From positions 136,761-200,760 of IMG/VR virus record IMGVR_UViG_3300030419_006251: DNA of 64,000 bases; one strand, written 5' to 3'. Both the position numbers and the translations under genes were made by a program. A model generated the notes under the pieces. That model saw only the letters and a program-made list of their open reading frames with translations. It made no database searches and was not told the origin of the DNA. The first letter of the stretch is position 1, and each line of letters starts with the position of its first letter. Below are positions 26,879 through 56,062 of this stretch, piece after piece. Origin of the DNA: a virus. Lineage: Duplodnaviria > Caudoviricetes.

Positions 26879-27454
26879 TCAAGGTAACGAATACCATCCT
26901 TGTTCATCCCAACTAGTTTCTGCTTTTTCAAAATTTTGCAAAAATCTTTCATATTGTCTAACAGCCTCAAATAATATTATATTAGCAGTTTGAGAAGTAT
27001 TTAAACAATATCCAACTCCAGGCATTGGAATGTATATCTTTTCACTATTTTTAAGAAGTTCCACTGGTATACCTAATTCTTCGTTACCCACGACCAAAGC
27101 CAAAGGCTTACTAAAATCGAAATTATAAGAAGTAATGGGCTGCGCACCTTCACAAATCTCTGCAGATATAAGTCTAATCTCGTTGCTTCTAATATAATCG
27201 AGAAAAGCCACTGGCGAGCTATGCTTTTCAATCTTGACATAATCATATAGACTTCCGGAAGACGGCTCCAAGATAGAACGCGGCGGCACAGAACCTATTA
27301 CATGGATACATTCAGCGCCGAAACAAGCAGCGGCTCTAATAAGATAACCAAGATTACCATCGCACTGAAAATTAACGCACACGAGGCTAATAGGAAAAAC
27401 TTTAGCATGTCTCGTTTTTTCATCGTACCTCTCCCTTCTTGTTTTGTCTCGCAT
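26879..27454 (-). CDS. SpoU/TrmH-family RNA 2'-O-methyltransferase
   Basis: GNLGYLIRAA..FG; ALVVGNEELGI; IPMPGVGYCLNTSQTANI. Confidence 0.9.
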   Translation of the reverse strand: MRDKTRRERYDEKTRHAKVFPISLVCVNFQCDGNLGYLIRAAACFGAECIHVIGSVPPRSILEPSSGSLYDYVKIEKHSSPVAFLDYIRSNEIRLISAEICEGAQPITSYNFDFSKPLALVVGNEELGIPVELLKNSEKIYIPMPGVGYCLNTSQTANIILFEAVRQYERFLQNFEKAETSWDEQGWYSLP

Positions 27455-29642: not shown

Positions 29643-29719
29643 TGGTACTCCGAGCAGGATTCGAACCTGCGACCCTCGGCTTAGAAGGCCGATGCTCTAT
29701 CCAGCTGAGCTATCGGAGC
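29643..29719 (-). tRNA. tRNA-Arg(TCT)
   Basis: GCTCCGA acceptor, TCGGC-CTTCTAA-GCCGA anticodon arm, GGTTCGAATCC, CCA. Confidence 0.95.
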
Positions 29720-29724
29720 AAAGA

Positions 29725-29809
29725 TGGTAGGGGCGACGGGACTTGAACCCGCATGCACCAGTTACCCAAGTTTAATGCACCGCTTATAAGACGGCTGGGA
29801 TACGCCCCC
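29725..29809 (-). tRNA. Atypical tRNA-like gene, anticodon TAT (Ile); no canonical D-arm, 26-nt extra arm
   Basis: GGGGGCG/CGCCCCT acceptor + ACCA; T-arm GCGGG-TTCAAGT-CCCGT; anticodon arm GCCGT-CTTATAA-GCGGT; only 7 nt between acceptor and anticodon stems. Confidence 0.75.
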
Positions 29810-29827
29810 TGAACTATACTTAATATA

Positions 29828-30334
29828 TCAGTATTCAGGGAGTGTGTCAATAGGCTTTTCATTTATTTCTCTTCTTTCTTCCGTAACTATATTATACAAT
29901 ACACCTGGCGATAGATCACATCGATCATATATTTTAATTGTTCTCCAATTTATTATATCAGCAATTCTTAGTGCATAAGCAATCCATTCACTACAATACC
30001 ATCTATTTTTTCTTTTTATATTAAAAGGTATCAACTGTGACATTATCATGCCTATCCAATCATATGTGCATCCTTTCGTATCTTCATAAAATTCTAATAA
30101 TATGTTATGTTGTTCCTGCGATATATCAAATTCTATGAAGTCCCATTTTTGCAAATCAAAATCTGTTTTTATTCTAGAGGAGACAGTCGATGATAAGAGC
30201 GGGCTTATGCTAATCCATGTATAATTATCAGGCATTATTAATTCGGCATGACTATACGGACTTTTGGTCCACCAACGGATAATTTTGTTTTTCCAATTTC
30301 CCTTGCCTTTGTAAAAGGCAATCCGTATTTTCAT
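29828..30334 (-). CDS. Permuted papain-like amidase (YiiX/YebB, NlpC/P60 permuted)
   Basis: YSHAEL (His) precedes YDW...WYCSEWIAYAL (Cys). Confidence 0.75.
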   Translation of the reverse strand: MKIRIAFYKGKGNWKNKIIRWWTKSPYSHAELIMPDNYTWISISPLLSSTVSSRIKTDFDLQKWDFIEFDISQEQHNILLEFYEDTKGCTYDWIGMIMSQLIPFNIKRKNRWYCSEWIAYALRIADIINWRTIKIYDRCDLSPGVLYNIVTEERREINEKPIDTLPEY

Positions 30335-30773: not shown

Positions 30774-31109
30774 TGGTGGAGACGGCGGGAGTCGAACCCG
30801 CGTCCACAATAAGTCCAATTGTAGTCATTCACAAGTTTAGTCAGTTTCTATCAGTTACTGACAAAGGTAGATGGCGTTTAGATACCGCTTACCATCCTAT
30901 TGCGATAAATTTGTTGATTTTTACAACTTATCTGTTGTTTTTGCTCAAATTGGATAGAAGGCTTTGAGCGGCCTCCCGATTAAGCCGCTAAGCGAACAGA
31001 ATCGAAGTGATTGTTGTTATTTGCAACTATTGTTTTTGAACTGTCAAGGTCGTATCTAACCTACTTGCACTATTCTTTTTTCTTACTCTGTCGAAGCCGT
31101 TTCGTCCCC
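30774..31109 (-). ncRNA. ssrA: tmRNA; predicted tag (A)ANNNNHFDSVRLAA
   Basis: 5' GGGGACG...TTCGAC; 3' GGGTTCGACTCCCGCCGTCTCCACCA with a G3:U pair; tag frame 31024..30980 starts GCA and ends GCG GCT TAA. Confidence 0.95.
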
Positions 31110-47705: not shown

Positions 47706-48270
47706 CCCCGGAGGGGGAGGGGGGGTACCTGGTAAGTGCTTGTTATTGCTTGGGTTTTGTGTAGCATATACATTGTTATACGGTGTTAAATGTATGTCAA
47801 GTCTTTGTTAGTACTGTGTAGTATATTCTTTTACTTGTTCTTTACATTTATTCTTTTATTACCCTCGTTAAATGTTTCACTCCTCCGTAACACAGGTTAT
47901 ACCTGCCATATGCTGTCGCATGTATCACATACTGTAGCATATATTCTTTTATACCCCTCGGCGTATACCTTTTGATACGGTAGATGCGCCGCGTATACTT
48001 TATGATACGGTGGCTTGTAGCATGTGTCGCATGTATTTGTTACACTGATGCATTTATTACCCTCGCTCATATTGGGCTTGTAACCTGCGTTATCGTGTCG
48101 CATAAATATACATTAAATGTTACACCGTATACTTTATGATACGGACAATAAATGACTTGACAAGCAAGGCGTATATGTACTAGTTCCTTCCCCTGGTTTG
48201 CTCCCTTCTCATTAAATGTTAATACATGTATACAATGTTGCAACTATTATACGATCAGATGGTAGTACCC
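47706..48270. repeat. Non-coding region with G-tract and iterated short repeats (candidate origin/terminus)
   Basis: G-run 47710-47725; (G/C)CGTAT-N8-ATACGG at 47961, 47991, 48125; TGTCGCAT at 47914, 48025, 48096; TTTATTACCCTCG at 47855, 48053. Confidence 0.6.
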
Positions 48271-48279
48271 CTAAGACAT

Positions 48280-48558
48280 TTATACTTCATGTAGTACGGC
48301 ACTGAGGGATTGCATTAAAGCTACTGCAAGTTGTTCACTCTCTGTAGACAATGTAGACAATCCTGTTACACTTTTATTATCATTGGCCTCGGTGGTTTTC
48401 CGTTGCAACTCATTGAGCCCGTTAGCTAGTGTCACAAAGGTGGCAGACAAAGCGAGGTTGTCACCGAATGCCATGGCTCTGCAAGTGTGTCGCTCAAAGA
48501 GTGTAACATTATTTATAACTGGAATACCCTTGATCATATCCTCTTCTGTGTAATACAT
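48280..48558 (-). CDS. Hypothetical protein
   Basis: 92 aa ORF. Confidence 0.5.
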   Translation of the reverse strand: MYYTEEDMIKGIPVINNVTLFERHTCRAMAFGDNLALSATFVTLANGLNELQRKTTEANDNKSVTGLSTLSTESEQLAVALMQSLSAVLHEV

Positions 48559-48933
48559 TTACTTTATTCTCTCCTTTATACCCTCGATGTGTTTGCATTT
48601 ACGACGATAGCTATACCCAATGCAAGTACAACTGAAAAAAATCTGGCGCGAATCGCTCTGATACTCGGTCACGATATATTCACTCCCTCTCGACCCCATC
48701 ACCTTCCACTCTCGACCCTCGCGCGGGGCGGCTGGCTGCTTCTCTCGGCGCTTCACCACCATGTATCGGGGCAAGTCCTCAAAGGTGGTGCTCGGAGGCA
48801 CTGAGAGCCATTCTGAGCCGCTGACTGCATAAGTGCCTGATGGTAGTCTCGTGATGCACGGAGGCCAGTCAACCTCGATGGGGCTGACCGGCGGAGTGTG
48901 CAAAGGTTTATTATCAATCGCAGTCAATGGCAA
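48559..48933 (-). CDS. SWIM zinc-finger protein
   Basis: GSRGSEYIV...FSCTCIGYSYRRKCKHI. Confidence 0.8.
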   Translation of the reverse strand: MPLTAIDNKPLHTPPVSPIEVDWPPCITRLPSGTYAVSGSEWLSVPPSTTFEDLPRYMVVKRREKQPAAPREGREWKVMGSRGSEYIVTEYQSDSRQIFFSCTCIGYSYRRKCKHIEGIKERIK

Positions 48934-50158
48934 TAATCCTCTCGTTGGTCTGGAAGTACGGACGCTGGGCGTAATACTTAGTCGTCATCCACATACGCTG
49001 ACACTTGGATGGAATGGGCTTGGGAGCCATGAGATCCGTCAGGACGATGTGACCGTCGAACCCGTGATCGTTGACATACTTGGTCGGAGGGTTGAAGTCG
49101 GTGCCGCCGTAGCGCACACGGACCCACTTGCGCTTCTCGTTACGCTTCCACACATGAATAAAATCTTCTGCAACCTCGGTATCAAAGGGGATTACCGTGA
49201 ACTCAGCTAGCTCGGCCAGCTTGTTCAACTCAGAGAAGAACGCGGCCAGCATGCCATCATCAACAGAACCGGACTGATCGATGCTGATCGCGATACGAGC
49301 TTGACGACGGACCTTAGAGCCTGCATGGATGTAGGGGTAACGCTTATTCAGGCGCTTCACCGTGCGAGTCTTGTTGGACCGTTGAGAGGTTTTAATGAAG
49401 TACCGCAGCACTTTGCGCCAATCAACCTTAGAGGCGATACGGTCAAGGATGTCGCGACGGCACTCACCAGACACGGAACCCCAGCTATTGGCCTTCTGAG
49501 CCTCTTCTGCAGCCTTCTTGACTGATTCCTTTAGACGCTCCTTCGCGATGTCCTGAGCGGCCCCCTGGCCCTCGCCCCAGCCACTATGATCATCAAAGCT
49601 GTCGCCAAGCTGATCGGATGGGTCGCCGGATCCTCCACCTTCGCCGTCGCCCTGCTGTTCGTCCTGCTCTTCCTGCTTCTTCTTGAGAGCAGCAAAATAA
49701 TGCTCCGCGCTCTTGCCCTTTTCCATATCCGCAAATGGGCCCTCACCGGGCATGCAGCACTGTTCGGGCAACTCGCCGACAAGGTGAGAGTTGATCGCAA
49801 GATCCGTGGCGATGTTCCACATTTTAGACATGCCACCATCGGGCAAACGACCAGTGACATGCTCAAAGACAAGATGATAGAACTCATGCTTGAGCACTCC
49901 AGCACGCTGGACATCTGGCAGCTTCGCAAAGAAGGCCGGATTGTAGAGCATTTCAAAGTGACCATCATCAGTCACGCGAACACCAGCAGTCGGGATCGCG
50001 CCCGATGCCTTCTTGTTGATGCGTCGAGAGAGGGCCGCAAAGAACGGCTCGTCAACGAGTAGACGCGCGGTGTGACGATTCAAGTCAAACTCTGCCACTG
50101 CAGCGGCTAGCTCCTCGGGAGTCATTTCGGGCGCGGGGGATGAAACGGGCTGGGTCAT
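48914..50158 (-). CDS. Putative metallopeptidase + VWA-like domain protein (DUF2201 type)
   Basis: TAGV..MLYNP.F; VLKHEFYHLVFEH; WNIATDLAIN; ISIDQSGSV; GGTDFNP; IVLTD. Confidence 0.85.
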   Translation of the reverse strand: MTQPVSSPAPEMTPEELAAAVAEFDLNRHTARLLVDEPFFAALSRRINKKASGAIPTAGVRVTDDGHFEMLYNPAFFAKLPDVQRAGVLKHEFYHLVFEHVTGRLPDGGMSKMWNIATDLAINSHLVGELPEQCCMPGEGPFADMEKGKSAEHYFAALKKKQEEQDEQQGDGEGGGSGDPSDQLGDSFDDHSGWGEGQGAAQDIAKERLKESVKKAAEEAQKANSWGSVSGECRRDILDRIASKVDWRKVLRYFIKTSQRSNKTRTVKRLNKRYPYIHAGSKVRRQARIAISIDQSGSVDDGMLAAFFSELNKLAELAEFTVIPFDTEVAEDFIHVWKRNEKRKWVRVRYGGTDFNPPTKYVNDHGFDGHIVLTDLMAPKPIPSKCQRMWMTTKYYAQRPYFQTNERIIAIDCD

Positions 50159-50181
50159 AGAAATCTCCTTGCTATACTATA

Positions 50182-50236
50182 AATATAGCATGGTGAGGCG
50201 AAAAGGTCAAGGCTCAAGCTGTCAAGAGAATGTCAA
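50182..50236 (-). promoter_or_regulatory. Triple -35 early promoter, copy 1
   Basis: TTGACA-5-TTGACA-9-TTGACC-17-TATATT. Confidence 0.8.
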
Positions 50237-50535
50237 ATGTCCTCTTCACACGCTCTCGCCTCCTTATCAAGCTCTGCGAGGTCTTCAGCGACATCGGCGA
50301 CGGTCATGGGCCGGTCCTTTCGTCGCTTGGCAGCTTCTCGATCCAACCTCCCCCATCGACGCGATCCGTTTGGATGCTCGCACAAGTGGAGATCGGTGAT
50401 TCCAAGGGCTGTGTAGCGTTTCAGGGCCGTCTGAGTGGCTCGGAGGGTGTCGGGACGGGTTAGCACTGTCTCGTACCCTGAGAGCCGTCCTGCGGCGTCT
50501 AAGTTGACATGCGTGCGGCTGATATAGTATTTCAC
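50233..50535 (-). CDS. Hypothetical protein (GTG start, 100 aa)
   Basis: MKYYISRTHV...; stop is the TGA inside a promoter TTGACA. Confidence 0.55.
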   Translation of the reverse strand: MKYYISRTHVNLDAAGRLSGYETVLTRPDTLRATQTALKRYTALGITDLHLCEHPNGSRRWGRLDREAAKRRKDRPMTVADVAEDLAELDKEARACEEDI

Positions 50536-50627
50536 TATCGGCCCTCGTAGAAAGCGCAGACGGGGATCCCGACGAGTGCGGTGCTCCAAAGAGCGATGAT
50601 GATGGATGATGCGATGATTGCTGTCAT
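50535..50627 (-). CDS. 30-aa membrane peptide (not in ORF track)
   Basis: MTAIIASSIIIALWSTALVGIPVCAFYEGR with AGGAGG SD. Confidence 0.5.
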   Translation of the reverse strand: MTAIIASSIIIALWSTALVGIPVCAFYEGR

Positions 50628-50664
50628 GATATGCCTCCTATGGCGATTGAGTAAAGGTTTAATA

Positions 50665-50740
50665 TGGTGGGCCCTGTCGGATTTGAACCGACGACTATCC
50701 CGTTATGAGCGGGGCGCTCTTACCACTGAACTAAAGGCCC
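50665..50740 (-). tRNA. tRNA with CAT anticodon, probably Ile2 (lysidine type)
   Basis: GGGCCTT acceptor, loop CTCATAA, GGTTCAAATCC, CCA; acceptor resembles Ile2 rather than initiator Met. Confidence 0.88.
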
Positions 50741-50744
50741 GGAA

Positions 50745-50820
50745 TGGTGGGTCAACTGGGACTCGAACCCAGAACCTACGGCTTAAAAGGCCGGTGCTCT
50801 ACCCGTTGAGCTATTGACCC
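50745..50820 (-). tRNA. tRNA-Lys(TTT)
   Basis: GGGTCAA acceptor, loop CTTTTAA, GGTTCGAGTCC, CCA. Confidence 0.95.
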
Positions 50821-50822
50821 GA

Positions 50823-50908
50823 TGGTAGCTGCGGCGGGAGTCGAACCCGCATGCTCATTGGAGCGAGAGATTTTAAGTCTCTTGTGTCTACCGTTCCACC
50901 ACGCAGCC
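50823..50908 (-). tRNA. tRNA-Leu(TAA)
   Basis: GGCTGCG acceptor, AGAGA-CTTAAAA-TCTCT, long variable arm, GGTTCGACTCC, CCA. Confidence 0.95.
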
Positions 50909-50917
50909 AAGGTTTAT

Positions 50918-51985
50918 TTACTGCTGGGACTCTCCAGTCAATAGTTCGACAAGATAGCCACTGACGGATGTACCATCTGCGGCAGAGGACTGGTGAAGCT
51001 CAACAGTATTCTGGATCTCACCGTTGCCCAGAACAACCCACAGCTTCATGGCTACCTCGGATGGCAGCGTGACGAAATAGTTAGCAAGGTTCTGTACCTG
51101 CTCGGCGGGCAGAGCCTCTGCGAAAGCTGCGGTAGCCTCCATCTTCTCGACTAGTGCGCTGTGATCGTTGATCGTGAAATCACTGGTGCGGTCAATCTCA
51201 CCCTTGACCAAAATATCCTCGACCGTCACCTGACGGGAATAGTTGGTGAAGAAGTCCTGCAGTGCAACGGCAGCTTCAAAGCCAACAAACGCTGCAGCGA
51301 GGTTAAAGATCGTACCCGCGTCTGCGTCCTCACCAAGGAGATCCGCGCCGGTCGCTGCCTGATTCAGGCGATCCCAGGAACGACGAGAAGGGTATACCTT
51401 GTTCGGCTCAAAATCGCCGGTGTGCTCAAGGTGATTACGGTTCTGATTGATGAAATCCCAGACCAGACCATCAACCTCGGTCTTGGCCCAATCAAGCCAG
51501 TCCTCGTGGGAAGGCTCGACATCGAAGACCGTGTAGCGGTCAAGCTCCGCAGGATCCATTTCGCCGACCTGATACTGTGCGCCGTGCTCGCCACCGTTGA
51601 CGGCTGCGACAATGATGGTGTCAGCGTGGAGGCTGAAACCGGCCAGCTTGCGACTGTCGGTCAACTCAAAGATGCCTTGACGGACCTCGGGAGTCGCACG
51701 GTCAACCTCATCGAGGAAGAGCACCACAGGCTCATCACAGGCAGTCTTGAACCACGCGGGCGGGTTCCAAGTGGTGACAGCACCGTCAGTGCTCGGAAGG
51801 CCAAGAAGATCGCCCTCAGTCATCTGAGAGGCGCGGCGCTCCACAACCGGGAGTCCGAGATCGCCCGCCAACTGGTAGACAACCTGAGATTTGCCCACAC
51901 CGTGACGGCCACGGAGCAGCACGGGAAACCGTGCAGCGGTGACATGAGGGACGATAGCGCGAAAGGTCTTGAAATCAACTGCCAT
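50918..51985 (-). CDS. MoxR-like AAA+ ATPase
   Basis: Walker A GRHGVGKS, Walker B VLFLDEVDR, AAVN, MDPAELDR, SRRSW. Confidence 0.9.
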   Translation of the reverse strand: MAVDFKTFRAIVPHVTAARFPVLLRGRHGVGKSQVVYQLAGDLGLPVVERRASQMTEGDLLGLPSTDGAVTTWNPPAWFKTACDEPVVLFLDEVDRATPEVRQGIFELTDSRKLAGFSLHADTIIVAAVNGGEHGAQYQVGEMDPAELDRYTVFDVEPSHEDWLDWAKTEVDGLVWDFINQNRNHLEHTGDFEPNKVYPSRRSWDRLNQAATGADLLGEDADAGTIFNLAAAFVGFEAAVALQDFFTNYSRQVTVEDILVKGEIDRTSDFTINDHSALVEKMEATAAFAEALPAEQVQNLANYFVTLPSEVAMKLWVVLGNGEIQNTVELHQSSAADGTSVSGYLVELLTGESQQ

Positions 51986-52036
51986 GATAGGACTCCTTAG
52001 TCGAGGGGGCGAGGGTTCATCCCTCGCTACATTATA

Positions 52037-52091
52037 AATATAGCACAGTGGGGGGAAAAGGTCAAGGACATTCTTGTAAAGAGAATGTCAA
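52037..52091 (-). promoter_or_regulatory. Triple -35 early promoter, copy 2
   Basis: TTGACA-5-TTTACA-9-TTGACC-17-TATATT; a fourth hexamer TTAACA lies 11 bp further upstream. Confidence 0.8.
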
Positions 52092-52099
52092 GAAGATGT

Positions 52100-52624
52100 T
52101 TAACTTACCAGCGTGAAGGCATCGGCCCGGTCGCTGATCTCAGAAATCGAGGTTGTAGGCGCGGTTTGAGAAGGCTTAAGAAGTTTAATCCTGAAGCCAC
52201 CCCAGTCACCATCCCACATGAAGTGGTCGATCACCAGACCTTCGCCGTGATGCTGATGGCACACAAGCGATCCTATGCCGATGGGCTTGGGACGCTCAGA
52301 AATCAGTTCCATGGCCTCGCTGCGCTCGATAGGCTCACCGTCCAAGAAGACCGTATCGGAGGGCTCAGAAGGGCTCTCAGGGGCCTTAAACACAAAGTCA
52401 TCCCAGTCGAGGACGAAATCAATCGCGTTGCAGGCTTCGTGACCAGCCTCGGTCAGATCCCATTCGGGCGGGTGGATGCTGGTTCGCACGGCAAGTCCAG
52501 CCAGCACGAGCATATCCAGATGAGCGCGATTCGGCTCAAGCTCGCCCATGTGCATAAGTGCGTGCCATTCGTCCTCGGTCAGCTTGAGGGCGCGAAGGTC
52601 AGAAGTGGTCGGGGTGTCAGTCAT
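52100..52624 (-). CDS. Hypothetical protein with C-terminal SH3-like segment
   Basis: IGIGSLVCH...EGLVID...FRIKL; SD AAGGAG. Confidence 0.55.
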   Translation of the reverse strand: MTDTPTTSDLRALKLTEDEWHALMHMGELEPNRAHLDMLVLAGLAVRTSIHPPEWDLTEAGHEACNAIDFVLDWDDFVFKAPESPSEPSDTVFLDGEPIERSEAMELISERPKPIGIGSLVCHQHHGEGLVIDHFMWDGDWGGFRIKLLKPSQTAPTTSISEISDRADAFTLVS

Positions 52625-52653
52625 CGGGTAGCTCCTTGCTCGATTACCCCTGT

Positions 52654-52708
52654 ATTATCTCACAGGGGAGAGGGAAAGTCAATAGAAAGTTTGTCAAGAG
52701 AATGTCAA
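52654..52708 (-). promoter_or_regulatory. Triple -35 early promoter, copy 3
   Basis: TTGACA-5-TTGACA-9-TTGACT-17-GATAAT. Confidence 0.75.
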
Positions 52709-52710
52709 GA

Positions 52711-53439
52711 CTACTCGTCACCCTGTTCACGCCAGAACCAGTAGTCGCGCTTTGCGCCCTTCTCAAAAATATCCACGCTGGCATAATCGAGGTTGGAAGC
52801 CGCTTCCCAGCCTGCTGGTGGCGTCGGCACAACATGGGCACGACTCAGGATAGTCACCGTGTTCCATCGGCTGGAAGACTGCGTGACTTCGCTCGGGAAC
52901 GAGAGCACACAAGGTTTATTATCCGTCACTCGACGCGCGATGATGGCAGCGGGCCACTTGGCTTTGCGGTGAATCGTGTCCCACTTGATGCCCGTGACGA
53001 TACACGGAGTCACCGTGCCATACTCATCATGCGACAGGAGAGTGCCGGGACCGACGCCATGTTCACGCATCGCATCCAACACGGTGCGTCGAGTCTCGAC
53101 GGTCAGAGCAGCGTAACGCTCACGATCTGCCTTTTGCTGCGGGCATGTGCGTCGGTTATGTCCGTTCTCCCCGCAATAGCCGCACACGCGGCCTCCGTGG
53201 GTCGCTCGGCGACGGCGTTTGCTTTCGCCCGTGATTGGATCTTCTCCGATGCGCTTGGCTAGCTTTTCGCGAGTGCGCTGATAGGTATAGTCGTCTTCTG
53301 GTCGGGATCCATTCTCGACCTCTTTCCGTAGTCGTTCAAAGCGGTGAGCCATTTGCTCCGTCAACTTCTCGCAGCTTGCGCGGTTGTGGCCTCGCTCGTA
53401 GCAGTGGCCGCATCGAATAGTTCCAGAATAGTTACCCAT
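52711..53439 (-). CDS. Protein with two CCHC zinc knuckles
   Basis: CGHCYERGHNRASC and CGYCGENGHNRRTC (CX2CX4HX4C). Confidence 0.8.
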   Translation of the reverse strand: MGNYSGTIRCGHCYERGHNRASCEKLTEQMAHRFERLRKEVENGSRPEDDYTYQRTREKLAKRIGEDPITGESKRRRRATHGGRVCGYCGENGHNRRTCPQQKADRERYAALTVETRRTVLDAMREHGVGPGTLLSHDEYGTVTPCIVTGIKWDTIHRKAKWPAAIIARRVTDNKPCVLSFPSEVTQSSSRWNTVTILSRAHVVPTPPAGWEAASNLDYASVDIFEKGAKRDYWFWREQGDE

Positions 53440-53484
53440 GTAAAATCTCCAGTGTCAGAGGGTTCAACTCGTTCTTACCCTATA

Positions 53485-53539
53485 AATATAGCCGATATAA
53501 ACGAGGAAGTCAAGGTTAAAGTTGTAAAGAGAATGTCAA
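53485..53539 (-). promoter_or_regulatory. Triple -35 early promoter, copy 4
   Basis: TTGACA-5-TTTACA-9-TTGACT-17-TATATT. Confidence 0.8.
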
Positions 53540-53549
53540 GAGAGGTTAA

Positions 53550-53725
53550 AGAGTGAGTCCGGTCGATGATCGCTGTCCTTGCCGCGTCTTCCTCACCAGC
53601 TTTGTTTTAACTCCCTCGCGGGTTCGCACGCGCATCTACCGTGTTCGGTGACTCTCGCCGTGCAGTGGGTTCATTCAAAGCGTTGAACCCCACCTTTAGT
53701 TTACTATTTCGACCGGACTCACTCT
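53550..53725 (-). ncRNA. Candidate 176-nt structured RNA with perfect 17-bp closing stem
   Basis: AGAGTGAGTCCGGTCGA (53550-53566) / TCGACCGGACTCACTCT (53709-53725); internal hairpins including CCC-GCGA-GGG; fully intergenic. Confidence 0.65.
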
Positions 53726-53733
53726 AGAAAGGT

Positions 53734-54546
53734 TTATTTTACTTTTCGCGCTGCTTTAAGGTGGCGTTCCTCGATAATCACGGGGCGTGCCCCACCGACC
53801 GGCAACACGCTATACTTCTTCGCGCCACGGGCTGCGCTAGTCACTGGTGCAGCGTCGGTCTTGATGACAACGCAAGGCTTATTTCCAGTGCCCCAACGGG
53901 CGCTAGAGGGCGCGGAAGCCCTAAGAGCGACAAATGACCCTGCCGCGTATTTCGGGGCGCTCAGAGTGGCCTCAATGACCTTCTGGGCGTACTTGTTCTC
54001 GACCATCTTACGGTACTGCTTTTGGGTCGGAACGCCATCGGCCAGCACCTTTGTGACAACACCTTGAAAATAGCTTGTCGTCTGGTAGTAACGCGCGGCG
54101 ATGACAGCGCGGTCACGCGGAGACACACCCTTCTCGTCTGGCGAGGTATAATCAGTCGCCCATGTAGCTGCTGCAGCCATGGCCTCATCACTGTTTTCGC
54201 GCTCGATCTTCTCAAGAATCTGTACCTGCTTGGGACTGAGATCACGCCCACCCTGTACCTGTAGGCTCAGACTCATCACAAAGCGGCTAGCCCATGCATC
54301 ATCGCTTACACGCTCTGACAGTGCGCTCAGACGCTTGATCATGGTGCCGCCGCGCTTTGCTGCCTCGGCCAGCTTCTCGGCGCTATAGCGGTCCTCAAGC
54401 TCTCTAACGCAACGCGCTCGGCCAGAGGTCAGGCGACCTTTGCTCTTATAGTAGTGCTGCAAGCTCTCGCAGAACTGACGATCCCGCTGTGAGAGCGGGC
54501 GGGCGAGAAGAGCGATGAAGCGGTCGGCGTAAGTCAGACGGGGCAT
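53734..54546 (-). CDS. Hypothetical protein, repeated LSxKQ helical units plus C-terminal SH3-like domain
   Basis: ATG at 54546 with AAGGAG SD; LSQRDR/LTSGR/LSPKQ/PTQKQ units; GSFVALR...CVVIK...YSVL...LKAA. Confidence 0.6.
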   Translation of the reverse strand: MPRLTYADRFIALLARPLSQRDRQFCESLQHYYKSKGRLTSGRARCVRELEDRYSAEKLAEAAKRGGTMIKRLSALSERVSDDAWASRFVMSLSLQVQGGRDLSPKQVQILEKIERENSDEAMAAAATWATDYTSPDEKGVSPRDRAVIAARYYQTTSYFQGVVTKVLADGVPTQKQYRKMVENKYAQKVIEATLSAPKYAAGSFVALRASAPSSARWGTGNKPCVVIKTDAAPVTSAARGAKKYSVLPVGGARPVIIEERHLKAARKVK

Positions 54547-54569
54547 AGAATCTCCTTGGTTACGCATAT

Positions 54570-54624
54570 AATATAGCCTATGCGCGGGCAGAAGTCAAGT
54601 CAGGAAATGTCAGGGAAATGTCAA
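54570..54624 (-). promoter_or_regulatory. Triple -35 early promoter, copy 5
   Basis: TTGACA-5-CTGACA-9-TTGACT-17-TATATT. Confidence 0.8.
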
Positions 54625-54830
54625 ATCGTAAAATCAATGATTGCAACTCCTCTTTCGGGCTGCTCATCTTCATCGACTTTATGCATGGGCGATTCATAAT
54701 CGCGTGGATCGTGGAGCGGTTCGATGGGATCGGGGGCGCGTAGCTGCAGTGGCGGCTGTCCATCTGGGTGCTCGCGGCGCATAAGGTCGAGGATGACACT
54801 GATCGGAAGGGTCGGATGCATATGATTCAC
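54621..54830 (-). CDS. Hypothetical protein
   Basis: 69 aa; AAGGAG SD; stop inside a promoter TTGACA. Confidence 0.6.
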   Translation of the reverse strand: MNHMHPTLPISVILDLMRREHPDGQPPLQLRAPDPIEPLHDPRDYESPMHKVDEDEQPERGVAIIDFTI

Positions 54831-54845
54831 TCCTTGCTTGCCTAT

Positions 54846-54900
54846 AATATATAGTATTCTGGGGCTGAAATCAACCCTTTTCTTGTAAAGGATTTGTCAA
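54846..54900 (-). promoter_or_regulatory. Triple -35 early promoter, copy 6
   Basis: TTGACA-5-TTTACA-9-TTGATT-17-TATATT. Confidence 0.75.
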
Positions 54901-55068
54901 CGCCTGCAAGAGCCCGCCAGTACACCATCGCTTGACACCAGTATCAGCAAAACAAATCAGATATTGATCGGTTCCTTCTGAAACCTTTAATATGATACCG
55001 GGCGGCTGACTGCCTAGTCCTCGACTCCACATCGCCAAATCGCCTACCTTAAATCTTCTATTTCTCAT
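54871..55068 (-). CDS. SH3/KOW-like array protein
   Basis: FKVGDLAMW...GIILKV...YLICF...LQAL. Confidence 0.65.
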   Translation of the reverse strand: MRNRRFKVGDLAMWSRGLGSQPPGIILKVSEGTDQYLICFADTGVKRWCTGGLLQALTNPLQEKG

Positions 55069-55388
55069 GCTGCAACCTTTGTTTTAAGAATCTCGCACTC
55101 ATACATGAAGTCATCCCATGTCTTCTCAACCCATTCGCCAAAGATGCCGTATAGCTCTCCTGCTGTCATCTTTCGCAGCTTTTCATGATGCCACTCGGGA
55201 GGTTCGACAGCAGCGTCTTCCTCGATGCCGCTACGGTCGTTGTAGACCTTCTTCGCGTCCTCGTCGTCCTCTATTCCGAGATATTGTAGTACATCCTCAA
55301 TAGCTGCGAGGATTGCGCCCTTCTCAGTGAAGTGCGTACTACATGCCATTTCGCCATCGTAGCGAACCATAAAAACCCAAATCGGCAT
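55065..55388 (-). CDS. Hypothetical acidic protein
   Basis: 107 aa, coupled to both neighbours. Confidence 0.6.
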   Translation of the reverse strand: MPIWVFMVRYDGEMACSTHFTEKGAILAAIEDVLQYLGIEDDEDAKKVYNDRSGIEEDAAVEPPEWHHEKLRKMTAGELYGIFGEWVEKTWDDFMYECEILKTKVAA

Positions 55389-55591
55389 TAACCAGTTCCT
55401 CCCTCTTCGACCTTGTTAGCTCCCTTGCTAACAAGGTTTATTTTCCAAGGGGCGAAGTATTCGCCCGTGTGAATCTTAATCATCTTTGTGCCAAGCACCG
55501 CAGTGTCGGCAACCTCTACTATCAATGCAGTCTCGCCGGTGTCTCTGATCCTAACAAGATCGCCAACTTTCCAGGGTCTAGGGTCTTTCAC
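55388..55591 (-). CDS. SH3/KOW-like array protein (GTG start)
   Basis: MKDPRPWKVGDLVRIRDTGETALIVEV; SD GGAGGTGATC. Confidence 0.7.
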   Translation of the reverse strand: MKDPRPWKVGDLVRIRDTGETALIVEVADTAVLGTKMIKIHTGEYFAPWKINLVSKGANKVEEGGTG

Positions 55592-55733
55592 TGATCACCT
55601 CCAGTCCTGTCGAATAGTTATCAGCATCTTCAACGATGCCATCGTCAAACCACTTAATCAATGTCTCATAGGCATCAGCCACGATCACGATTGCTAAATG
55701 TCCGTTACAACTTACCAAATCACCGACTTTCAT
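55578..55733 (-). CDS. SH3/KOW-like array protein (51 aa)
   Basis: MKVGDLVSC...LIKWF...LEVISERP. Confidence 0.7.
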   Translation of the reverse strand: MKVGDLVSCNGHLAIVIVADAYETLIKWFDDGIVEDADNYSTGLEVISERP

Positions 55734-55896
55734 TGATAGCCTCCAGATGATGGGAGAGAAATGAATGGGTGGATCCTTTGACGAGCACGCGATAATGAAG
55801 GATCCGATAACCACTCGGATGGTCGCTGATCTCGACGATCAGGCCGAGAGGTTTATTATCGACCGCAACACACTTGACTAAATCACCGACCTGCAT
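55720..55896 (-). CDS. SH3/KOW-like array protein (58 aa)
   Basis: MQVGDLVKC...LGLIVEI...YRVLV...LEAINESR. Confidence 0.7.
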   Translation of the reverse strand: MQVGDLVKCVAVDNKPLGLIVEISDHPSGYRILHYRVLVKGSTHSFLSHHLEAINESR

Positions 55897-56062
55897 TGAC
55901 AACCTCTATGTATCGGGCATCCCAGTATTCATACCGCCGCACCCGGCTGCACCAAACTCTTACGAACTCACTCGATGCAGCGTTCCTTGTCACTATCGCA
56001 GCGGGGCCGAATGCGGCACCCGTCTTAGCGTGTTTCATCCTTACCAAATCACCGACTTGCAT
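55883..56062 (-). CDS. SH3/KOW-like array protein (59 aa, not in ORF track)
   Basis: MQVGDLVRMKHAKTGAAFGPAAIVTRNAASSEFVRVWCSRVRRYEYWDARYIEVVNAGR. Confidence 0.7.
   Translation of the reverse strand: MQVGDLVRMKHAKTGAAFGPAAIVTRNAASSEFVRVWCSRVRRYEYWDARYIEVVNAGR

What the first reader, a model, noticed from the sequence alone, without database searches (positions are those of the whole stretch)
29725..29809. tRNA-Ile(UAU)-like RNA with the D-arm deleted and a D-loop-like hairpin in the variable arm
Seen: GGGGGCG-TATCCCA-GCCGT-CTTATAA-GCGGT-GCATTAAACTTGGGTAACTGGTGCAT-GCGGG-TTCAAGT-CCCGT-CGCCCCT-ACCA. Acceptor, anticodon and T arms are good, with an encoded CCA, but only 7 nt link the acceptor and anticodon stems. 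The 26-nt extra arm forms GCATTA/TGGTGC around AACTTGGGTAAC, which resembles a D-loop (GG) and can pair with the CCCA connector as a pseudoknot. Established: bacteria normally read AUA with lysidine-modified CAU tRNA, and UAU anticodons are rare; a conventional CAT tRNA is also present at 50665. Inference: an alternative fold that rebuilds the L shape, perhaps decoding AUA without TilS or resisting anticodon nucleases. I cannot tell whether this class has been described.
Basis: partly seen in the sequence, partly recalled or inferred. Interest (0 to 1): 0.72.

Follow-up and report, generated by a model that had tools for sequence, protein, structure and literature searches.

The report
Rewired phage isoleucine tRNA (UAU)
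This 85-base gene of an uncultured marine phage most likely encodes a working transfer RNA for the isoleucine codon AUA. Its D-arm is not deleted but split around the anticodon arm and closed as a pseudoknot, a non-cloverleaf layout that gene finders miss and that I could not find in any paper.

Summary
On the minus strand of window 29725-29809 lies an 85-nt tRNA-like gene. It has good acceptor, anticodon (CUUAUAA) and T arms, an encoded ACCA, only 7 nt where the D-arm should be, and 26 nt after the anticodon arm. Rfam tRNA scores it just above threshold; ARAGORN misses it.

It is a conserved gene: 48 copies (24 distinct) in marine phage contigs, always inside tRNA clusters, with compensatory changes in the acceptor and T stems.

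It belongs to a much larger phage family (over 130 genes fetched here). In that family three connector bases pair with three bases behind the anticodon arm: 97 of 98 genes pair fully, in 12 sequence combinations. A D-loop-like A-R-Y-(Y)-GG-U segment follows, and an R15:Y48-like pair covaries. A search blind to the anticodon found only UAU, GAU and CAU anticodons and A73 in every gene, which points to isoleucine identity.

Charging, decoding and expression are untested. This scan has flagged the same family before on other DNA. I found no description in the literature I could search.

The parts
29725..29809 (-). Whole 85-nt rewired tRNA-Ile(UAU) gene. RNA position 1 is window 29809 and position 85 is window 29725.
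   Evidence: Rfam tRNA 31.7 bits. Model R1 finds 48 homologous copies.
29822..29850 (-). Sigma-70-like promoter: TTGACA, 17-nt spacer, TATATT, with TG before the second hexamer. The -10 hexamer ends 12 nt before the gene.
   Evidence: 11 of 12 consensus matches. The same promoter motif lies upstream in L004, L041, L149, L152, L154, L163 and L173. In the relative L035, which lacks the gene, it stands directly before tRNA-Arg.
29803..29809 (-). Acceptor stem, 5' strand (G1-G7).
   Evidence: Pairs 2-7 with 66-71 are 100% paired. Pair 6:67 changes C-G to U-A in 6 distinct copies. The 1:72 position is G.U or mismatched.
29800..29802 (-). U8 A9 U10 connector, invariant across the family.
   Evidence: Columns 8-10 are invariant in alignment A8. 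All 98 connectors begin with TAT.
29797..29799 (-). Rebuilt D-stem, 5' strand (C11 C12 C13).
   Evidence: Pairs with G43-G45. The homologous columns 11-13:43-45 of A8 are 100% paired and all 3 pairs change on both sides. 97 of 98 family genes pair 3/3, against a mean of 30 with shuffled partners.
29779..29795 (-). Anticodon arm: 5 bp plus loop CUUAUAA. The UAU anticodon is at 29788-29786.
   Evidence: 100% paired in the subfamily. The stem covaries across the family.
29776..29778 (-). Second helix (H2), 5' strand G32 C33 A34, directly after the anticodon stem.
   Evidence: Pairs with U53 G54 C55. Seen as GCA:UGC, GCG:UGC and GGA:UCC in genes with a 7-nt connector and a long linker, and as GGC:GCC, AGC:GCU, GAC:GUC and GGU:GCC in the sister group with a 10-nt connector.
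29768..29775 (-). Single-stranded linker (U35-U42). It is 6 nt longer than the NGAAA linker of most family members.
   Evidence: Positions 35, 36, 38 and 40 vary freely within the subfamily. Alignment A8.
29765..29767 (-). Rebuilt D-stem, 3' strand (G43 G44 G45).
   Evidence: Same evidence as for C11-C13.
29758..29764 (-). D-loop-like segment U46 A47 A48 C49 U50 G51 G52, read as analogues of A14, R15, Y16, Y17, G18 and G19.
   Evidence: TA and GG are invariant in A8. A48 pairs with U57 like the R15:Y48 Levitt pair: A-U in 14 and G-C in 7 of 22, and 90 of 98 against a shuffled mean of 54. Only the analogues of positions 16 and 17 vary in the subfamily.
29755..29757 (-). H2, 3' strand (U53 G54 C55).
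29753..29754 (-). A56 (invariant; possibly the A21 analogue) and U57 (the Y48 analogue).
   Evidence: The A21 assignment is inference.
29736..29752 (-). T arm: GCGGG, loop UUCAAGU, CCCGU.
   Evidence: 100% paired. Pair 50:64 changes C-G to U-A in 7 distinct copies. Pair 49:65 is G.U, G-C or A-U.
29725..29735 (-). Acceptor 3' strand (29735-29729), discriminator A73 and encoded CCA (29728-25).
   Evidence: A73 is present in 98 of 98 family genes.
29643..29719 (-). Canonical tRNA-Arg(UCU), 5 nt downstream. It probably shares a transcript with the rewired gene.
   Evidence: ARAGORN and Rfam at 72.9 bits. Adjacent to the gene in most homologous loci.

Best explanation
The element is a functional phage tRNA of a 'rewired' isoleucine-tRNA family, and here it reads AUA through a UAU anticodon.

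Its core is a permutation of the cloverleaf. After U8 A9 U10, a short strand (C11-C13) runs straight into the anticodon arm. The partner strand (G43-G45) and a D-loop-like segment (U-A-A-C-U-GG) come only after the anticodon arm. In this long-linker subfamily a second 3-bp helix (G32-A34 with U53-C55) closes a pseudoknot.

The tertiary landmarks of an ordinary tRNA are all kept: U8, A14, a covarying R15:Y48 pair, G18G19 opposite a standard UUCRA T-loop, and A73-CCA. The molecule therefore probably folds into an L-shape. In this reading RNase P cuts it out of the tRNA-cluster transcript that starts at the promoter at 29850-29822, host IleRS charges it through A35, U36, A37, A38 and A73, and it supplies AUA decoding for an AUA-rich phage.

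Shown: gene conservation, the helices and their covariation, restriction to NAU anticodons, the tRNA-cluster context and the codon usage.

Inferred: the 3D fold, processing, charging with Ile and use on the ribosome.
For: 1. Conservation under selection. There are 48 copies (24 distinct) at 97-115 bits in marine phage contigs whose flanks differ completely. The copies sit before tRNA-Arg(UCU), after it, or between tRNA-Leu(UAA) and tRNA-Lys(UUU), always 2-12 nt from neighbouring tRNAs or behind a conserved promoter. Compensatory changes occur in the acceptor and T stems.

2. Family structure. In a MAFFT alignment not fitted to any structure (A8, 22 sequences), the connector/post-anticodon helix is 100% paired with double-sided change in all 3 pairs. 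The R15:Y48-like pair is A-U in 14 and G-C in 7. At fixed offsets, 97 of 98 distinct genes pair 3/3, against a mean of 30 and a maximum of 41 in 1000 partner shuffles; shifted registers collapse. The sister group with a 10-nt connector has a 6-bp version with 9 different sequences.

3. Identity. A pattern that leaves the anticodon free returned only TAT (71), GAT (20) and CAT (7), and A73 in 98 of 98.

4. Decoding logic. In loci that also hold a canonical tRNA-Ile, the two anticodons differ in 15 of 18. The phage's other tRNAs read ACA, AGA, AAA and UUA. AUA makes up 30% of Ile codons, 18.9 per 1000.

5. H2 covariation.
Against: - There is no direct evidence of transcription, processing, charging or decoding. 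Four metatranscriptome contig sets covered only the neighbouring tRNA-Arg.
- Within this subfamily the D-helix, H2 and the anticodon arm are almost invariant, so their support comes from homology to sister groups, not from this subfamily's own covariation.
- The 1:72 position is G.U or a mismatch in all 24 distinct copies (U.U, C.U, G.G, C.C in 14), unlike the rest of the family, where 95 of 98 are paired. A mismatch there may weaken EF-Tu binding.
- The gene is dispensable: only 1 of 3 complete related genomes has it.
- The phage also has a tRNA-Ile2(CAU)-like gene, which makes the UAU gene partly redundant.
- Nearest-neighbour energies do not favour the rewired fold over the plain hairpin (-27.6 against -28.7 kcal/mol).
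- No bacterial translation system is known to use a non-cloverleaf tRNA (stated in PMC11551756).
Confidence: 0.7

Rival explanations
1. It is a tRNA mimic that is not used for decoding. It could be a decoy or sponge that titrates a host tRNA-Ile-directed nuclease, a modification enzyme (for example TilS) or IleRS, or some other regulatory small RNA processed from the tRNA transcript.
For: The core is non-canonical, and 1:72 is mismatched in most copies of this subfamily, which could disfavour EF-Tu. The gene is redundant with a tRNA-Ile2(CAU)-like gene in the same phage. Phage tRNAs are known to counter tRNA-targeting defences (PMC10264068, PMC11464382). The anticodon loop is invariant, as a decoy for an anticodon nuclease would also require.
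Against: The family keeps every feature needed for charging and for the ribosome: 7/5 acceptor/T stems, A73-CCA, U33, A37 and a standard T-loop. Its anticodons are complementary to the co-resident canonical Ile tRNAs in 15 of 18 loci. A decoy for one nuclease would not need three different wobble bases.
Confidence: 0.15
2. It is a derivative of the phage's type II tRNA-Leu(UAA) with a one-base anticodon change (UAA to UAU). It is still charged with leucine and so misreads AUA as Leu.
For: The 3' 32 nt are 84% identical to the phage's own tRNA-Leu(UAA). The best matches among cultured phages are tRNA-Leu T-arm and acceptor ends. The loops CUUAUAA and CUUAAAA differ by one base. The gene lies directly after tRNA-Leu(UAA) in many loci. 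A73 is also the Leu discriminator in E. coli (my own knowledge).
Against: The whole-length alignment to the rewired family explains the same 3' features, including the CAY motif before the T stem. That family uses only NAU anticodons. The D-loop architecture that LeuRS reads is rearranged. The similarity is confined to the generally conserved T arm and a GC-rich acceptor strand.
Confidence: 0.05
3. It folds as the plain four-helix structure without the connector pairing: acceptor, anticodon arm, a 6-bp extra hairpin stacked on the anticodon stem, and the T arm. That makes it a D-armless tRNA with a long variable arm.
For: This is the minimum-free-energy fold (-28.8 kcal/mol) and the alignment Rfam gives. 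The outer three hairpin pairs are conserved and covary with sister groups.
Against: The inner pairs 35:52 and 36:51 are broken in 3 and 9 of 24 distinct copies. G51 G52 and C11-13/G43-45 are invariant even though this fold does not need them. The homologous connector helix covaries strongly in the family.
Confidence: 0.07
4. It is a decaying tRNA pseudogene or a recombination scar in the tRNA cluster.
For: ARAGORN fails to call it and the Rfam score is marginal. It is absent from 2 of 3 complete relatives.
Against: The gene stays 94-100% identical across contigs whose flanks and neighbouring tRNA-Arg genes differ completely. It shows compensatory substitutions, a full encoded CCA in all 48 copies and a conserved promoter.
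Confidence: 0.02

Closest known systems
Canonical bacterial and phage tRNA-Ile: tRNA-Ile(GAU), lysidine tRNA-Ile2(CAU), and the rare tRNA-Ile(UAU) of Mycoplasma mobile (PMC3575796) and of the Bacillus subtilis tilS-deletion suppressor (PMC3919564)
   Same: 7-bp acceptor stem, 5-bp T stem with a UUCRA loop, 5-bp anticodon stem with loop C-U-NAU-A-A, A73-CCA, U8, an R15:Y48 pair and a GG motif. The presumed job is the same: reading AUA with U34 and no lysidine.
   Different: There is no D hairpin between positions 10 and 25. One D-stem strand precedes the anticodon arm, while the other strand and the D-loop follow it. This subfamily adds a 3-bp helix that makes a pseudoknot. ARAGORN misses 129 of 132 family genes.
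D-arm-lacking mitochondrial tRNAs, such as metazoan mt-tRNA-Ser(AGY) and nematode mt-tRNAs (PMC4013460, PMC7609411)
   Same: Only a short connector lies between the acceptor and anticodon stems.
   Different: The mitochondrial molecules truly lack the D-arm. They are shorter and more flexible and rely on co-evolved mitochondrial factors. Here the D-stem and the D-loop signature are rebuilt from relocated segments, the length is 77-90 nt, and the setting is a bacterial host's translation system.
allo-tRNAs with 8/4 or 9/3 acceptor/T branches, among which UAU anticodons are frequent (Mukai et al., PMC5389517)
   Same: Non-canonical tRNAs found in metagenomes and phages, with extra sequence in the variable region and often a UAU anticodon.
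   Different: allo-tRNAs have an 8/4 or 9/3 branch, a D hairpin with a long stem and tetraloop, and a true V-arm, and they are serine-type. This gene has a 7/5 branch, no D hairpin and only NAU anticodons.
Engineered non-canonical-fold tRNA evolved to work in E. coli (PMC11551756)
   Same: It addresses the same question: can bacterial translation use a tRNA that is not a cloverleaf?
   Different: That tRNA is a laboratory construct. [quoted passage not shown] The family here would be a natural exception, carried by phages.

Membership tests
tRNA (Rfam RF00005, cloverleaf) | Score at or above the curated gathering threshold | tested here: met
   31.7 bits against a gathering score of 29, E = 0.011 for the window.
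tRNA (Rfam RF00005, cloverleaf) | 7-bp acceptor stem, 5-bp anticodon stem with a 7-nt loop (U33, purine 37), 5-bp T stem with a UUCRANY loop | tested here: met
   The loop is CUUAUAA and the T-loop is UUCAAGU.
tRNA (Rfam RF00005, cloverleaf) | D hairpin (positions 10-25) between the acceptor and anticodon stems | tested here: not met
   Only 7 nt lie between the stems. Rfam aligns 4 nt to 15 model positions. ARAGORN makes no call.
Isoleucine tRNA (identity set known from E. coli; listed from my own knowledge) | Anticodon NAU with A35 and U36, plus A37, A38 and discriminator A73 | tested here: met
   Sequence. An anticodon-blind family scan gave only TAT, GAT and CAT, and A73 in 98 of 98.
Isoleucine tRNA (identity set known from E. 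coli; listed from my own knowledge) | Aminoacylation by IleRS and decoding of Ile codons | not testable with these tools
   Needs biochemistry.
Rewired phage tRNA-Ile family (defined by this scan; no publication found) | UAU connector followed by a 3-bp (or 6-bp) strand that pairs with a strand behind the anticodon arm | tested here: met
   C11-13:G43-45 align to the covarying columns 11-13:43-45 of A8. 97 of 98 genes are fully paired.
Rewired phage tRNA-Ile family (defined by this scan; no publication found) | D-loop-like U-A-R-Y-(Y)-G-G-U after the 3' strand, and an R:Y pair with the last base before the T stem | tested here: met
   UAACUGGU at 29764-29757, with A48:U57. In the family this pair is A-U or G-C in 90 of 98.
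D-arm-lacking mitochondrial tRNA | The D-arm is replaced by an unpaired connector with no substitute D helix, in a mitochondrial genome | tested here: not met
   The connector pairs with a downstream strand. The genome is a 200-kb phage record.
allo-tRNA (8/4, 9/3) | 12-bp acceptor branch split 8/4 or 9/3, and a D stem with a tetraloop | tested here: not met
   7/5 branch and no D hairpin. Definition taken from PMC5389517.
Type II tRNA (Leu, Ser, Tyr) with a long variable arm | A canonical D-arm plus a self-contained V-arm hairpin | tested here: not met
   There is no D-arm. The inner pairs of the putative V hairpin are not conserved. Compared with the phage's own tRNA-Leu(UAA).

The most novel reading that the evidence does not exclude
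Phages have evolved, and spread widely, a natural non-cloverleaf tRNA. Its D-arm is permuted and, in this subfamily, pseudoknotted. It is still charged by host IleRS and used by bacterial ribosomes. The rewiring is kept by selection because it makes the phage's Ile tRNAs escape structure-reading host factors, such as tRNA-targeting defence nucleases or host modification and quality control. That would give the phage a private supply of AUA, AUU and AUC decoding during infection.
Probability: 0.2. Interest if true: 0.92.

Novelty: new variant of a known kind. Interest (0 to 1): 0.8.

Why it matters
The cloverleaf is treated as universal outside mitochondria. A 2024 paper states that all known bacterial tRNAs adopt it (PMC11551756). 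If this family is functional, three things follow.

- The L-shaped core can be built from a different strand order, and bacterial RNase P, IleRS, EF-Tu and ribosomes tolerate it.
- Standard annotation systematically under-counts phage tRNAs: ARAGORN overlapped 3 of 132 genes here. That distorts analyses of phage codon adaptation and of missing Ile tRNAs.
- It offers a natural scaffold for orthogonal tRNA engineering, and a concrete test case for the idea that phage tRNAs evolve to evade tRNA-targeting immunity.

Tried and rejected
- Expression. The look-up of sequencing runs returned only runs sharing 3 of 17 words. Laying four metatranscriptome contig sets covered only the neighbouring tRNA-Arg (other organisms' tRNA-Arg) and nothing on the element. 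This says nothing about expression either way.
- Cultured phages. blastn of the 85 nt against 50,697 phage records gave only two 32-nt T-arm/acceptor matches to tRNA-Leu genes. No cultured relative carries the gene.
- Prokaryote genomes. The pattern scan gave 7 hits with the wrong spacing, and none matched model R1, so they are chance hits.
- ARAGORN in mitochondrial mode finds nothing. Its single call in L154 uses a spurious acceptor stem.
- Origin from tRNA-Leu(UAA). Considered because of the similar 3' third. Rejected as the main reading because the full-length homology is to the NAU-only rewired family.
- A fourth D-helix pair, A14-U42. Not conserved: L428 has C at position 42, and most family members have C14 opposite A.
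- An alternative register, U8-C12 with G43-A47. It fails in the TATACCC and TATCGGC groups.
- Thermodynamics cannot choose between the hairpin fold and the rewired fold.
- Link to the nearby SpoU methyltransferase. Homologues lie near tRNA clusters both with and without the element.
- Literature. Seven full-text searches found no description of this layout.

Full report
**What is there.** The window is the last 64 kb of a 200,760-bp IMG/VR virus record that CheckV rates as complete. It has about 37% G+C, genes almost all on the minus strand, a tmRNA and five ARAGORN-detected tRNAs: Thr-UGU, Arg-UCU, Met/Ile-CAU, Lys-UUU and Leu-UAA. The flagged element is the reverse complement of 29725-29809. 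Rfam's tRNA model matches it at 31.7 bits against a threshold of 29, with 4 nt in place of the 15 D-arm positions and a 23-nt insertion in the variable region. ARAGORN misses it in both bacterial and mitochondrial modes. A near-consensus sigma-70-type promoter (TTGACA, 17 nt, TATATT) ends 12 nt upstream. A canonical tRNA-Arg(UCU) starts 5 nt downstream.

**Is it a real gene?** I built a covariance model from three close copies (R1). I fetched relatives through the two flanking proteins and through DNA patterns in IMG/VR and JGI metagenomes. This gave 48 copies, 24 of them distinct, at 97-115 bits, all from marine samples.
- The copies always lie in tRNA clusters, but in different arrangements: promoter-element-Arg(UCU), Arg(UCU)-element, or Leu(UAA)-element-Lys(UUU). 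Spacers are 2-12 nt.
- A copy identical to the window's sits in a Leu-Lys-Met cluster in L174. In the window that same cluster (50.6-50.9 kb) lacks it.
- Flanks, and even the neighbouring tRNA-Arg genes, are unrelated between groups, yet the element stays 94-100% identical.
- Within the subfamily, acceptor pair 6:67 switches C-G to U-A, T-stem pair 50:64 switches C-G to U-A, and pair 49:65 is G.U, G-C or A-U.
- Every copy encodes ACCA.

This rules out a pseudogene. The gene is accessory: the closest relative (L035, about 85% protein identity) has the same promoter directly before tRNA-Arg, and only 1 of 3 complete related genomes carries the gene.

The connector UAUCCCA and the UUGGGUAA/CUGGU motifs are invariant, so the subfamily alone cannot decide.

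Earlier notes of this scan on other genomes suggested a 'split D-arm', and I tested that independently. A scan for CTTATAA, a gap, and a T-loop motif (parsed) recovered many 77-80-nt genes with the same 7-nt connector. These align with the window's gene over their whole length in a plain MAFFT alignment (A8).
- Connector positions 11-13 pair with three bases behind the anticodon arm in 22 of 22 sequences.
- All three pairs change on both sides (C-G to G-C ten and eleven times, C-G to A-U once).
- Sliding the partner by one to three columns drops overall pairing from 96% to 42-54%.

With fixed offsets on 98 distinct genes from a second scan, 97 pair 3/3 in twelve combinations: CCC:GGG, CGG:CCG, CUC:GAG, ACC:GGU, CCG:CGG, UCC:GGA, AAC:GUU, CAC:GUG, AGG:CCU, CCU:AGG and others. 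Shuffled partners give a mean of 30 and a maximum of 41. A sister group with a 10-nt connector has a 6-bp version with nine different sequences.

The window's C11-C13 and G43-G45 occupy exactly these columns. The fourth pair, A14-U42, is not conserved.

**The tertiary signature.** After the 3' strand every member has U-A-R-Y-(Y)-G-G-U, which is the consensus of a D-loop (A14, R15, Y16/17, G18, G19, U20). The R covaries with the last base before the T stem like the Levitt pair R15:Y48: A-U in 14 and G-C in 7 of 22, and 90 of 98 against a shuffled mean of 54. U8 and a CA dinucleotide before Y48 are invariant, and the T-loop is standard.

The only variable positions of the subfamily's 'loop' are the analogues of positions 16 and 17, plus the linker. 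That is where ordinary tRNAs vary too.

In strand terms, the block 'D-stem 3' strand, position 26, anticodon arm' now precedes the block 'D-stem 5' strand, D-loop'. My inference from the known tRNA structure is that acceptor position 7 and T-stem position 49 both lie near the loop end of the D-stem. Joining the relocated strands there would be geometrically reasonable, and an L-shape is plausible. This is not shown.

**The extra helix of this subfamily.** Most family members have a 5-nt linker (NGAAA) after the anticodon stem. The window's subfamily has 11 nt.
- Its first three bases (G32 C33 A34) can pair with U53 G54 C55, right after the GG.
- In other long-linker genes with a 7-nt connector the pair is GGA:UCC (a C-G to G-C swap), and in two copies GCG:UGC.
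- In the 10-nt-connector group, 10 of 11 pair at a fixed register, as GGC:GCC, AGC:GCU, GAC:GUC or GGU:GCC. Neighbouring registers fail.
- In alignment A10 the helix is 91% paired, with double-sided changes in 2 of 3 pairs.

This helix crosses the D-helix, so the long-linker genes are pseudoknotted. The support for this second helix is modest. Nearest-neighbour energies do not separate the folds: -28.7 kcal/mol for the hairpin and -27.6 for the 4-bp D-helix fold without H2.

**What does it do?** A scan that left the anticodon free returned only UAU (71), GAU (20) and CAU (7) anticodons, and A73 in 98 of 98. The scaffold is thus tied to isoleucine-type anticodons. This is what one expects if IleRS charges it through A35, U36, A37, A38 and A73 (identity elements as I know them for E. 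coli).
- Where a locus also holds a canonical tRNA-Ile, the two anticodons differ in 15 of 18 cases.
- In this phage AUA is 30% of Ile codons (18.9 per 1000). The other phage tRNAs read UUA, AGA, AAA and ACA, the commonest A-ending codons of their families.

The simplest reading is a working AUA decoder that does not need lysidine. The phage's CAU tRNA at 50665-50740 best matches E. coli genes annotated tRNA-Ile (77.6% over full length). So a TilS-dependent AUA reader is present as well, and the UAU gene is partly redundant.

**Open problems.**
- There is no expression data. The only RNA runs found share the neighbouring tRNA-Arg and leave the element uncovered.
- The 1:72 position is G.U in 10 and mismatched in 14 of 24 distinct copies, and never A-U. 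In the rest of the family it is paired in 95 of 98. I cannot explain this. It could affect EF-Tu binding or the RNase P cleavage site.
- Why isoleucine tRNAs, and why the rewiring is kept, is unknown. Escape from tRNA-targeting defences is a known theme for phage tRNAs (PMC10264068, PMC11464382, PMC13056530) but is untested here.

**Comparison and novelty.** The gene is not a D-armless mitochondrial-type tRNA, because the D-stem and D-loop signature are rebuilt. It is not an allo-tRNA, because it has a 7/5 branch and no D hairpin (PMC5389517). It is not a type II tRNA. Reviews of non-canonical tRNAs (PMC7609411) and seven full-text searches gave no description of this layout, and PMC11551756 states that all known bacterial tRNAs are cloverleaves. 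This scan has flagged the same family several times on other genomes. I used those notes as a lead and re-derived the evidence here. I rate it a new variant of a known kind (tRNA). Confidence is high that it is a real, selected gene with the rewired core, and moderate that it is charged with Ile and decodes AUA.

Noticed in passing
Loci L198, L206, L211, L232, L189-L192, L195, L225 and others: A second large family of phage tRNA-like genes has a UAU anticodon loop, a normal D-arm and a 21-27-nt variable arm. The hairpin loop of that arm carries a conserved CAGAUUA-like motif, which looks like a second anticodon-like arm. An earlier scan note (e1-121598) describes something similar.
   Followed up: no
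window 30774-31109 (-): A phage-encoded tmRNA (Rfam 122.6 bits) with tag ANNNNHFDSVRLAA. Tags starting ANNNN/ANNNL/ANNNT and the tmRNA-168 aa gene order are conserved in about 35 related IMG/VR contigs.
   Followed up: partly
window 26879-27454 (-): A SpoU-family 2'-O-methyltransferase (PF00588, 84.6 bits). Its weak best matches are TrmH (G18) and TrmL (position 34), both far below their curated cut-offs. It lies 2.3 kb from the rewired tRNA. Homologues lie near tRNA clusters in relatives both with and without the element, so no specific link is shown.
   Followed up: partly
window 50665-50740 (-): ARAGORN labels this tRNA as Met (CAU), but its best matches are E. coli genes annotated tRNA-Ile (77.6% over full length). 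It is probably a lysidine-dependent tRNA-Ile2, so the phage may carry two AUA readers.
   Followed up: partly
RNA positions 1 and 72 of the element (window 29809 and 29729) and the homologous copies in alignment A6: In this subfamily the first acceptor pair is G.U, U.U, C.U, G.G or C.C and never a Watson-Crick pair. The rest of the rewired family pairs it normally. Unexplained.
   Followed up: partly
L043:7658-7753, L100:7658-7753, L074:7559-7653: ARAGORN calls tRNA-Asn(GUU) genes of 95-96 nt in related phages, about 20 nt longer than normal. They may carry an intron or an extra arm.
   Followed up: no
window 48001-56000: G+C jumps from about 37-43% to 53% and strand skew vanishes over about 8 kb. 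This stretch holds the Leu-Lys-CAU tRNA cluster, an HNH endonuclease-like ORF (48914-50158) and an ATPase-like ORF (50918-51985).
   Followed up: no
L110:9866-9940 and the homologous tRNA-Arg(UCU) genes in L106, L112, L136 and others: The tRNA-Arg(UCU) next to the element in this group is unrelated in sequence to the window's tRNA-Arg(UCU) and has an unusual D-arm (GGUGAAAGGGAUAUCAC). Model R1 aligned only its 3' 60 nt.
   Followed up: no
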